DNA of 64,000 nt from a virus (lineage: Duplodnaviria; Caudoviricetes): IMG/VR virus record IMGVR_UViG_3300023283_000076, positions 128,001-192,000 of that record, one strand, 5' to 3'. Under the pieces are notes generated by a model. The model saw only the letters and a list, made by a program, of their open reading frames with translations, was not told the DNA's origin and made no database searches. Shown one piece after another: positions 13,822 to 13,983 of the stretch; within the stretch, counting starts at the first letter, position 1; each line of letters opens with the position of its first letter. Position numbers and translations under genes: made by a program.

Positions 13822-13983
13822 ACAGGTAATTTAAAAAGCTTTTTAAATACCGCTGCTCTACCAATTGAGCTACCAGCGAACCAAAAAATTCATTATACAT
13901 AAACTCTTTGGTTCGCTGGGCAGGACTCGAACCTGCAACCCACGGTTCCCATATTATTAGAAGGATGCCTTTTTATGGCCTGT
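13822..13983 (-). ncRNA. YrlA-like Y RNA: shared stem motif (copy C) carrying a circularly permuted tRNA domain
   Basis: ACAGG-CCATA-AAAAGGC-ATCCTTCTA, then T arm GCAGG-TTCGAGT-CCTGC, loop-closed acceptor stem CCAGCGAACCAAA/TTTGGTTCGCTGG, D arm GCTC-AATTGGTA-GAGC, open anticodon stem GCGGT/ACCGT, then GCTTTTT-AAATTA-CCTGT. Confidence 0.8.

What the first reader, a model, noticed from the sequence alone, without database searches (positions are those of the whole stretch)
13822..13983. Circularly permuted tRNA grafted on the shared stem (YrlA-like tRNA mimic)
Seen: arms occur in the order anticodon-stem 3' strand (ACCGU), variable GGGUU, T arm (GCAGG-UUCGAGU-CCUGC), acceptor 3' strand with ACCA, closing loop, acceptor 5' strand, D arm (GCUC-AAUUGGUA-GAGC), anticodon-stem 5' strand (GCGGU). 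There is no anticodon loop: that stem opens onto the shared motif. Known: this topology is the one described for bacterial YrlA Y RNAs. Inference: a decoy or tether for tRNA-targeting nucleases or repair enzymes. An alternative is a permuted tRNA fragment, since ACCA is retained inside the closed acceptor hairpin.
Basis: partly seen in the sequence, partly recalled or inferred. Interest (0 to 1): 0.85.

Follow-up and report, generated by a model that had tools for sequence, protein, structure and literature searches.

The report
Permuted tRNA mimic on phage scaffold RNA
A jumbo phage encodes a small RNA in which a tRNA-shaped module with a sealed acceptor end and no anticodon loop sits on a conserved stem, and that stem belongs to a large, uncatalogued RNA family always encoded next to one uncharacterised protein in phages and bacteria, much like Y RNAs beside Ro60.

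Summary
On the minus strand (13985-13820) the arms run anticodon-stem 3' strand, variable loop, T arm, acceptor 3' strand plus ACCA, hairpin, acceptor 5' strand, D arm, anticodon-stem 5' strand. There is no anticodon loop. The computed minimum-energy fold of the 166-nt unit is exactly this architecture.

The "shared stem" is also real. It consists of P1, an internal loop CYAUA/AAYUUW, P2 and the strand AUCCUUCUA. It defines an RNA family absent from Rfam 15. The family forms same-strand arrays flanking a 690-aa protein with a helical N-terminal part and a C-terminal TerD domain. I found it in 76 of 80 protein-selected phage loci and 67 of 80 bacterial loci. More than 40 units carry the same permuted tRNA-like module, and all four of its helices covary.

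The topology is that of YrlA, but the element is not a YrlA member:
- it scores 43.6 bits against a cut-off of 69;
- it has no GNCGAA motif;
- no TROVE gene was found.

My best reading is a Y-RNA-like adaptor RNA in a new Ro-like ribonucleoprotein. A functional permuted tRNA gene is unlikely. Other first-stage notes on this genome flagged the same motif; I tested them here.

The parts
14000..14028 (-). Sigma-70-like promoter TTGACA-17-TAAGAT, about 15 nt upstream of P1
   Evidence: Consensus scan, 10 of 12 matches. It is conserved in the close relative L301. Such matches are common in AT-rich DNA, so this is weak evidence on its own.
13820..13985 (-). Whole RNA unit: scaffold plus tRNA-like graft, 166 nt, followed by a U tract
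   Evidence: The minimum-energy fold equals the proposed architecture. Hand parse checked against the sequence.
13979..13985 (-). P1 5' strand. ACAGG pairs with CCUGU at 13826-13822
   Evidence: P1 covaries among copies: ACAGG/CCUGU, UUCUUGG/CCAAGAA, GUCGG/CCGAC.
13958..13978 (-). Scaffold hallmark: J1 CCAUA, P2 5' strand AAAAGGC, conserved AUCCUUCUA
   Evidence: Three copies in the window against 0 expected. These columns are invariant in alignment A1.
13849..13946 (-). Circularly permuted tRNA-like domain: anticodon-stem 3' strand, variable loop, T arm, closed acceptor, D arm, anticodon-stem 5' strand
   Evidence: Covariation across 25 homologous cores: acceptor 95% paired with all 7 pairs covarying, T 99%, D 92%.
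13873..13919 (-). Closed acceptor helix of 21 bp, including ACCA (13912-13909) paired to UGGU, with a 5-nt loop
   Evidence: Base-pair probabilities about 1.0. The extension is the longest seen in the family. In relative L305 it is a 7-nt loop, ACAAAGU.
13820..13848 (-). 3' side of the scaffold: linker, P2 3' strand GCUUUUU, J2 AAAUUA, P1 3' strand CCUGUUU. Overlaps a palindrome that can form a competing local hairpin before the U tract
   Evidence: P2 pair probability is only 0.23-0.29 because of the competing hairpin.
13630..13704 (-). Scaffold copy B, no graft, between tRNA-Met and tRNA-Trp
   Evidence: Model R1, 64.9 bits.
2103..2174 (-). Scaffold copy C, in the leader of the partner gene. 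Promoter-like TTGACA-17-TAGTAT at 2210-2182
   Evidence: Model R1, 62.1 bits. Promoter scan.
1..2019 (-). Partner protein gene (P0001, 690 aa: helical N-terminal part plus C-terminal TerD domain). Runs 53 nt past the window start

Best explanation
The element is a small non-coding RNA of about 165-175 nt. It appears to be transcribed from its own promoter, or released from the tRNA operon transcript. It has two modules.

Module 1 is a long irregular stem: P1, the internal loop CYAUA/AAYUUW, P2 and the single strand AUCCUUCUA. This stem defines a large RNA family. I infer that it is the binding site for the 690-aa helical/TerD protein encoded on the same strand, whose own leader carries another copy of the stem.

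Module 2 sits in the apical loop of P2. It is an L-shaped tRNA mimic with intact T and D arms, a sealed acceptor end and no anticodon loop. I infer that it serves as a handle. Either it brings an enzyme that recognises the tRNA elbow or acceptor (RNase P, the CCA-adding enzyme, modification or repair enzymes, or a host tRNA-directed toxin) to the protein, or it delivers the protein to such machinery. Sister RNAs with other apical modules would address other partners.

In logic this is a Y RNA/Ro60-type ribonucleoprotein, with YrlA the closest parallel, but it is built from a different stem motif and a different protein.

Shown here: the RNA architecture, its covariation, the family, and the gene-RNA linkage. 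Inferred: protein binding, the adaptor role, and any link to tRNA surveillance or counter-defence.
For: **Architecture.** Read from the sequence. The minimum-energy fold is identical to the model.

**Scaffold family.**
- 16 short units align with P2 100% paired and 6 of 7 pairs covarying. The covariation score is 0.81, against 0.13-0.21 for slid controls.
- Model R1 finds tandem arrays in other phage contigs.

**Graft family.**
- 25 cores are 90% paired overall. All 7 acceptor pairs covary. The D and anticodon helices, which were not used for selection, also pair.
- 38 of 38 closed-acceptor tRNA-like elements found beside the gene are preceded by the hallmark.
- An orthologous graft unit in a relative with 56% protein identity sits in the same synteny, after an Acb2/Tad1-like gene, and has different stem sequences.

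**Gene-RNA linkage.**
- Starting from the RNA, the protein is in every array locus.
- Starting from the protein: 3 of 3 contigs; 76 of 80 phage loci with 270 R1 hits, all on the gene's strand; 67 of 80 bacterial loci with 109 hits, all on the gene's strand.

**Parallel with Ro systems.**
- Other phage closed-acceptor tRNA mimics found in the same scan lie beside TROVE proteins or DUF2828+vWA proteins.
Against: - No binding or expression data exist. No RNA run holds the region.
- In the closest relative (90% protein identity) a 12-nt deletion removes AGGCAUCCUUCU from the graft unit while the tRNA-like core stays identical. There the module either works without the hallmark or is decaying.
- In this copy P2 competes with a local palindromic hairpin, and its pair probability is 0.23-0.29.
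- Model R1 does not recover this copy properly: 12.2 bits with a wrong 3' partner. Its membership of the scaffold family rests on the hand parse.
- The units used for pair counts were selected for acceptor and P2 pairing, so the percentages paired are partly built in.
Confidence: 0.55

Rival explanations
1. Cis-acting element. The scaffolds would be leader operators or processing and stability signals for the partner gene and the tRNA operons. For example, the protein could repress its own mRNA, or the stems could mark cleavage sites. The tRNA-like graft would then only supply an RNase P or RNase Z entry site.
For: - Copy C and its orthologues lie in the leader directly upstream of the gene.
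- Units abut tRNAs and each other with 3-15 nt spacers, like members of a processed operon.
- AUCCUUCU is complementary to a Shine-Dalgarno-like AGAAGGAU (read from the sequence).
Against: - Arrays of up to about 8 units lie on both sides of the gene, many of them downstream of it.
- Copy A has its own promoter-like site and lies 11.8 kb from the gene.
- The elaborate, covarying apical modules are unnecessary for an operator.
- This reading does not exclude the trans-acting one.
Confidence: 0.17
2. Decoy. The tRNA mimic would soak up a host enzyme or toxin that attacks the tRNA body or acceptor end. It would act as a phage counter-defence independently of the scaffold protein.
For: - It lies among phage tRNAs and anti-defence genes: Acb2/Tad1-like at 14289-14612 and Tad6 at 20518-20934.
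- In relative L301 the tRNA-like core is kept while the scaffold hallmark is deleted.
- ACCA directly follows the acceptor 3' strand in 6 of 38 units, far above the 1 in 256 expected.
Against: - There is no anticodon loop, so it cannot mimic the target of anticodon nucleases.
- The same design occurs in bacterial chromosomes, where a phage counter-defence role does not apply.
- The graft is almost always kept on an intact scaffold beside the protein gene.
Confidence: 0.12
3. A true but very divergent member of the Ro60/YrlA system. The protein's helical part would be a TROVE homologue with TerD replacing vWA, and the RNA a YrlA descendant.
For: - Ro60 structures are the best full-length matches after TerD.
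- The YrlA model aligns the tRNA-like core.
- The gene-RNA arrangement on one strand is as described for Ro60 and YrlA (PMC4201824).
Against: - The score is 43.6 bits against a cut-off of 69, and the stem is not matched.
- There is no GNCGAA motif.
- Pfam TROVE does not hit the protein or the genome.
- hhalign probability is under 1%.
- Any tRNA-derived core would match the YrlA model. Tandem tRNAs in this same genome do.
Confidence: 0.1
4. A functional circularly permuted tRNA gene. Its transcript ends would be joined, for instance by the phage Rnl1 ligase, and its acceptor hairpin opened by RNase P to give a working tRNA.
For: - The 3' half precedes the 5' half, with ACCA in place.
- The genome encodes Rnl1- and Rnl2-type ligases.
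- M. smegmatis YrlA is cut by RNase P and receives CCA (PMC4201824).
Against: - No 7-nt anticodon loop can be defined. In all homologues the anticodon-stem strands run straight into the scaffold.
- Most homologues have 3-8 nt acceptor loops without CCA.
- The phage already has 48 tRNAs covering all 20 amino acids.
- No splicing-type bulge-helix-bulge motif was seen.
Confidence: 0.03
5. An inert relic of recombination between tandem tRNA genes.
For: - Tandem tRNAs imitate the T-arm/D-arm order and hit the YrlA model weakly elsewhere in this genome.
- The recurring ACCA suggests an origin from tRNA genes with an encoded CCA.
Against: - The acceptor strands are perfectly complementary.
- The design is conserved with compensatory changes in dozens of phage and bacterial loci.
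- The core is identical in a relative whose flanks differ.
Confidence: 0.03

Closest known systems
YrlA (Rfam RF02553), the tRNA-like Y RNA bound by bacterial Ro60/Rsr
   Same: - The arm order is the same permuted one: variable region, T arm, closed acceptor-like stem-loop, D arm, and an 'anticodon' stem continuing into a long helix formed by the 5' and 3' parts.
- It is encoded on the same strand as a candidate protein partner, alongside simpler sister RNAs. YrlB is the parallel for copies B and C.
   Different: - The stem motif differs: CYAUA/AAYUUW plus AUCCUUCUA instead of GNCGAAN0-1G.
- The score is below the family cut-off.
- The partner is a helical/TerD protein with no sequence match to TROVE.
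- The RNAs occur in arrays of up to about 8 units with many kinds of apical module.
- In this window the RNA lies 11.8 kb from the gene.
Phage Y-like RNAs beside TROVE or DUF2828+vWA proteins
   Same: Closed-acceptor tRNA mimics in phage tRNA regions, each next to a large helical protein with a C-terminal ligand-binding domain.
   Different: The flanking motifs differ (for example a stem plus ACAGCAA), and so do the proteins. None reaches the YrlA cut-off either.
Circularly permuted tRNA genes of Cyanidioschyzon merolae, some green algae and Thermofilum (from my own knowledge)
   Same: The 3' half is encoded upstream of the 5' half, with the acceptor strands joined by a short linker.
   Different: Those genes mature through a circular intermediate into real tRNAs and carry a complete anticodon loop at the transcript ends. 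Here the ends continue into a conserved scaffold and no anticodon loop exists.
Phage T4 stable RNAs C and D (species 1 and 2) in the tRNA cluster
   Same: Small stable RNAs of unknown function encoded among the tRNA genes of a T4-like phage. rnaC ends in a T-arm/acceptor-like 3' part.
   Different: No scaffold motif: R1 finds nothing there. They are not permuted, and no linked protein is known.

Membership tests
YrlA (RF02553) | Covariance-model score at or above the gathering score of 69 bits | tested here: not met
   43.6 bits. Only the T arm, acceptor and D arm columns align, and the stem columns are flagged as non-pairs.
YrlA (RF02553) | tRNA-like domain with T arm, closed acceptor-like stem-loop and D arm in permuted order | tested here: met
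YrlA (RF02553) | GNCGAAN0-1G motif near the 5' end, the presumed Ro60 contact (PMC4201824) | tested here: not met
   The 5' part, 13985-13947, holds no such motif (read; definition).
YrlA (RF02553) | Encoded within about 4 kb of a TROVE (Ro60) gene on the same strand | tested here: not met
   No TROVE match in the 270-kb record, which is 79% complete. None in 5 other records, including one complete 169-kb phage.
YrlA (RF02553) | tRNA-type modifications, and RNase P or CCA-enzyme recognition | not testable with these tools
   Needs RNA from cells.
Scaffold RNA family defined here (model R1) | P1 ending in GG/CC, J1 CYAUN, 7-bp P2, AUCCUUCUA, J2 NAAYUU | tested here: met
   The hand parse meets every element. 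The minimum-energy fold forms P1 and P2.
Scaffold RNA family defined here (model R1) | Significant score with covariance model R1 | tested here: inconclusive
   12.2 bits with a wrong 3' partner, because the 100-nt insert is too long for the model. Copies B and C score 64.9 and 62.1 bits.
Scaffold RNA family defined here (model R1) | Same-strand linkage to a helical/TerD family gene | tested here: met
   The gene is on the same strand, 11.8 kb downstream, with copy C in its leader. Linkage across the family.
Functional circularly permuted tRNA genes | Transcript ends that join into a complete 7-nt anticodon loop, with a bulge-helix-bulge processing motif | tested here: not met
   The anticodon-stem strands continue into P3/P2 of the scaffold in all 25 cores, and there is no conserved loop.
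Ro60/TROVE proteins (for the partner protein) | Sequence match to Pfam TROVE or to TROVE profiles | tested here: not met
Ro60/TROVE proteins (for the partner protein) | Helical ring plus C-terminal ligand-binding domain, judged by structure | tested here: inconclusive
TerD domain (for the partner protein) | TerD beta-sandwich fold | tested here: met

The most novel reading that the evidence does not exclude
The window shows one member of an unrecognised and widespread two-part system. One part is a roughly 700-aa helical/TerD protein. The other is arrays of modular scaffold RNAs (P1, CUAU loop, P2, AUCCUUCUA) whose apical modules vary: hairpins, lone T arms, or whole anticodon-less tRNA mimics. 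It would be a third Ro-like ribonucleoprotein lineage, beside TROVE-vWA and DUF2828-vWA. Jumbo phages and many bacterial phyla would use it to direct RNA or tRNA surveillance, each RNA acting as an exchangeable adaptor.
Probability: 0.5. Interest if true: 0.9.

Novelty: new variant of a known kind. Interest (0 to 1): 0.82.

Why it matters
Y RNAs and Ro60 are the only well-known case of a protein whose activity is steered by modular non-coding RNAs that include a tRNA mimic, and their bacterial function is still unclear.

This locus shows the same logic with a different stem motif and a different protein:
- The protein family has thousands of sequence clusters: 4369 at E up to 0.001.
- It is present in 423 stretches of species-representative bacterial genomes, including culturable Priestia, Niallia, Paenibacillus and Aliikangiella.
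- The RNA is not in Rfam.
- The protein's large N-terminal part has no Pfam model.

If the protein binds these RNAs, two things follow. It gives a tractable system for asking why tRNA-shaped handles recur in RNA surveillance. It also explains a class of 'gaps' in phage tRNA clusters.

Tried and rejected
- **Megablast of 12000-16000 against GenBank phages:** no match.
- **First motif pattern in IMG/VR:** only chance hits inside coding regions.
- **Other full-length YrlA hits in this genome:** these are tandem tRNAs, not permuted elements.
- **Rfam at E up to 10:** nothing on the scaffold copies, nor on bacterial copies at E up to 0.1.
- **T4 rnaC/rnaD:** not related to the scaffold.
- **Single-sequence AlphaFold model of the protein:** unusable, pLDDT 32.
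- **hhalign of the family against TROVE and DUF2828 sets:** no similarity.
- **ESM Atlas look-up:** only 'hypothetical' and 'TerD family', mostly viral.
- **Sequencing runs:** DNA holders only, from lake and freshwater metagenomes, and no RNA run, so expression could not be tested.
- **A parent tRNA with the same acceptor stem in the genome:** none.
- **Conserved protein neighbours in 80 bacterial loci:** none found beyond 5 loci.
- **Literature searches:** permuted tRNA in phages, Y RNA with TerD, and the motif itself turned up no description. Three searches were wasted or malformed.
- **Model R1 on the graft-bearing copy itself:** it fails to align it.
- **RtcB:** absent from the genome.

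Full report
**Setting**

The window is bases 128001-192000 of a 270,653-bp IMG/VR virus record, estimated 79% complete. The phage is an AT-rich T4-like jumbo myovirus. It has a gp23-like capsid protein, a tail sheath, a family-B polymerase with an intein, and ribonucleotide reductase. The whole record holds 48 tRNA genes, 14 of them on the minus strand of this window. The finding lies on the minus strand between tRNA-Ser and tRNA-Met.

**The observation**

- ACCGU
- GGGUU
- T arm GCAGG/UUCGAGU/CCUGC
- acceptor 3' strand CCAGCGA followed by ACCA
- a spacer
- acceptor 5' strand UCGCUGG
- UA
- D arm GCUC/AAUUGGUA/GAGC
- A
- GCGGU

The 'closing loop' is in fact a further 14 bp of helix (ACCA pairs with UGGU, and so on) capped by 5 nt, so the acceptor helix is 21 bp long.

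ARAGORN and the Rfam tRNA model do not call it a tRNA. The Rfam YrlA model aligns the T arm, acceptor and D arm at 43.6 bits, E 3.5e-8 in a 1-kb search. That is below the gathering score of 69, and the stem columns are flagged as mismatched.

The region folds far better than shuffles, with z = -5.3. For the exact 166-nt unit, the ViennaRNA minimum-energy structure (-60.8 kcal/mol) is identical to the architecture I drew from comparative data. Pair probabilities are about 1.0 for the acceptor, 0.9 for T, 0.5 for D and P1, 0.35-0.38 for the anticodon stem, and 0.23-0.29 for P2. P2 competes with a local palindromic hairpin before the U tract.

**The shared stem**

The motif GGCCAUA-N-AAA-NN-GCAUCCUUCUA occurs three times on the minus strand, at 13980, 13699 and 2169, against none expected.

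Each copy has the same layout:
- an outer stem ending in GG/CC (ACAGG/CCUGU, UUCUUGG/CCAAGAA, GUCGG/CCGAC);
- a 5' loop strand CYAUA;
- a 7-bp inner stem (AAAAGGC/GCUUUUU, GAAAAGC/GCUUUUC, AAAGAGC/GCUCUUU);
- the invariant AUCCUUCUA;
- a variable insert;
- a 3' loop strand AAYUUW.

Copy C starts a few bases after a TTGACA-17-TAGTAT site and lies in the leader of a large gene. Copy A, this finding, follows a TTGACA-17-TAAGAT site. Copy B fills the spacer between tRNA-Met and tRNA-Trp.

**A family**

A pattern scan of IMG/VR plus a pairing filter gave 25 distinct units.
- In the 16 short ones, P2 is always paired with six of seven pairs covarying. The covariation score is 0.81, against 0.13-0.21 when partners are slid. 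The units were chosen for pairing, so the variety of pair types and the unselected conserved J2 are the real evidence.
- A covariance model (R1) then found 62 units in 29 loci, arranged head to tail in arrays of 75-85 nt units.
- Rfam 15 has nothing on any copy, phage or bacterial.

**The graft is a recurrent module**

- Some units are 130-141 nt long and carry the same permuted, closed-acceptor tRNA-like domain in the apical loop of P2.
- A MAFFT alignment of 25 such cores, scored against the cloverleaf, is 90% paired. The acceptor is 95% paired with all seven pairs changed on both sides. T is 99% paired and D 92%. The anticodon stem reaches 73% despite a register problem caused by 4-nt or 5-nt variable loops. 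The covariation score is 0.69, against 0.07-0.14 when slid.
- Acceptor loops are 3-17 nt long elsewhere. The 33-nt helical extension here is the longest.
- A small hairpin, UCCU with GGGA, often precedes the anticodon-stem strand, making a three-way junction.

**The protein partner**

- The gene after copy C encodes a 690-aa protein, P0001.
- Homologues of 35-40% identity lie inside every array locus on the same strand, flanked by scaffold units and often just after tRNA-Lys(UUU).
- Starting from the protein instead: three contigs chosen by protein alone have R1 hits directly upstream. In 80 phage loci there are 270 hits, every one on the gene's strand and next to it, in 76 of the 80. In 80 bacterial genome loci there are 109 hits at E up to 1e-5, again all on the gene's strand, in 67 of the 80.
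- The bacterial carriers include isolates of Priestia, Niallia, Neobacillus, Heyndrickxia, Paenibacillus, Tepidibacter and Aliikangiella, plus assemblies from many phyla.
- Graft-bearing units occur in 23 of the 80 phage loci and 8 of the 80 bacterial loci. All 38 are preceded by the hallmark.
- No other protein neighbour is conserved.

**What the protein is**

- Sequence searches give only a weak TerD match at residues 475-600. Database names are 'hypothetical' or 'TerD family'.
- The family is large: 4369 clusters at E up to 0.001.
- With an 86-sequence alignment, AlphaFold gives a confident model, pLDDT 93.7 and pTM 0.91.

**Context from other phages**

The pattern scan for closed-acceptor elements also picked up units on other stems.
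- One group has a stem plus ACAGCAA and lies beside DUF2828+DUF7788 (vWA-like) proteins.
- Another group lies beside TROVE proteins.
- None reaches the YrlA cut-off.

Sealed tRNA mimics thus recur as neighbours of large helical proteins with a C-terminal ligand-binding domain. This is the strongest indirect argument that the present system works in the same way.

**Close relatives**

- In a contig whose protein is 90% identical, the tRNA-like core is unchanged, but 12 nt (AGGCAUCCUUCU) are deleted and the 3' side carries an 11-nt duplication. Copies B and C are intact there.
- In a contig with 56% protein identity, an intact scaffold-plus-graft unit sits in the same place, after an Acb2/Tad1-like gene and before a tRNA. 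It has different acceptor, T and anticodon stems and a 7-nt loop, ACAAAGU.
- The unit is therefore orthologous and evolving under structural constraint. The hallmark is not indispensable in every lineage.

**ACCA**

ACCA follows the acceptor 3' strand in 6 of 38 units, and related ACAA/ACC starts are common. This points to an origin from tRNA genes with an encoded CCA. A tandem duplicate would supply a 3' half, a spacer and a complementary 5' half. Alternatively there may be selection for a CCA-like contact. It does not show a free CCA end.

**Why not a working permuted tRNA**

- No anticodon loop can be assembled.
- The ends run into the scaffold in all homologues.
- Most homologues lack CCA.
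- The phage already decodes all amino acids.

The genome does encode Rnl1- and Rnl2-type ligases but no RtcB. That keeps a link to tRNA repair open, but it proves nothing.

**Verdict**

The best-supported reading is a Y-RNA-like adaptor RNA: a protein-binding scaffold carrying an anticodon-less tRNA handle, in a previously uncatalogued RNA-protein system shared by jumbo phages and bacteria. Still inferred, not shown: binding, expression, and the identity of whatever recognises the handle.

Earlier first-stage notes on this genome (e1-5367712, e1-5367720, e1-5367723) proposed the three-copy motif and a 'TROVE-like/TerD' gene. I tested these here. The motif, its covariation and the gene linkage hold. 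The TerD part holds. The TROVE part is only suggested.

Noticed in passing
L087:1100-2935, L115:2080-4931, L083:9800-11860, L116:2750-7975: Another class of closed-acceptor tRNA mimics in phage tRNA regions. They have a closing stem plus an ACAGCAA strand and lie next to DUF2828+DUF7788 (vWA-like) proteins. A third class (L086, L100, L118) lies next to TROVE proteins. None reaches the Rfam YrlA cut-off.
   Followed up: partly
window 14289-14612 (-) and 20518-20934 (-): ORFs with an Acb2/Tad1 hairpin domain (E 1e-20) and a Tad6 domain (E 4.5e-15). These are anti-CBASS/anti-Thoeris type genes interspersed with the tRNA genes. The Acb2/Tad1-like gene keeps its place upstream of the graft unit in relatives L301 and L305.
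   Followed up: partly
L301:520-780 (relative with 90% protein identity): A natural variant of the graft unit. It has a 12-nt deletion of the scaffold hallmark and an 11-nt duplication on the 3' side, while the tRNA-like core is unchanged.
   Followed up: yes
window 13650-13670, 2125-2140 and 2085-2100 (-): The octamer UUUUACUC recurs in the apical loops of copies B and C and again just after copy C. In copy B it lies in a 4-bp hairpin with a 7-nt anticodon-like loop, CUUUUAC.
   Followed up: no
genome 74281-74403 (L002:1912-2034, +), outside the window: A tRNA model match spanning 123 nt, that is a tRNA with an insertion of about 50 nt. An earlier first-stage note (e1-5367683) reads it as a mini-tRNA-like insert in the anticodon loop.
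   Followed up: no
window 7265-7388 and 12579-12702: A 124-nt direct repeat, 86% identical, 5.3 kb apart in the tRNA/accessory region. There is also a T-arm-like fragment at 7435-7455 that is not called as a tRNA.
   Followed up: no
window 13409-13466 (-): A weak partial tRNA model match (18.6 bits, model positions 8-63), possibly a decayed tRNA.
   Followed up: no
genome 24990-25604 (+) and 48375-48989 (-), outside the window: T4 Rnl1-type and Rnl2-type RNA ligase genes. No RtcB and no TROVE gene in the record.
   Followed up: partly
window 50181-52340 (-): A family-B DNA polymerase ORF ending in an intein splicing domain, so the polymerase gene is interrupted by an intein.
   Followed up: no
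L040:4738-5049 and L245:8965-9402: Phage-encoded tmRNA genes lie close to the scaffold arrays in two related contigs.
   Followed up: no
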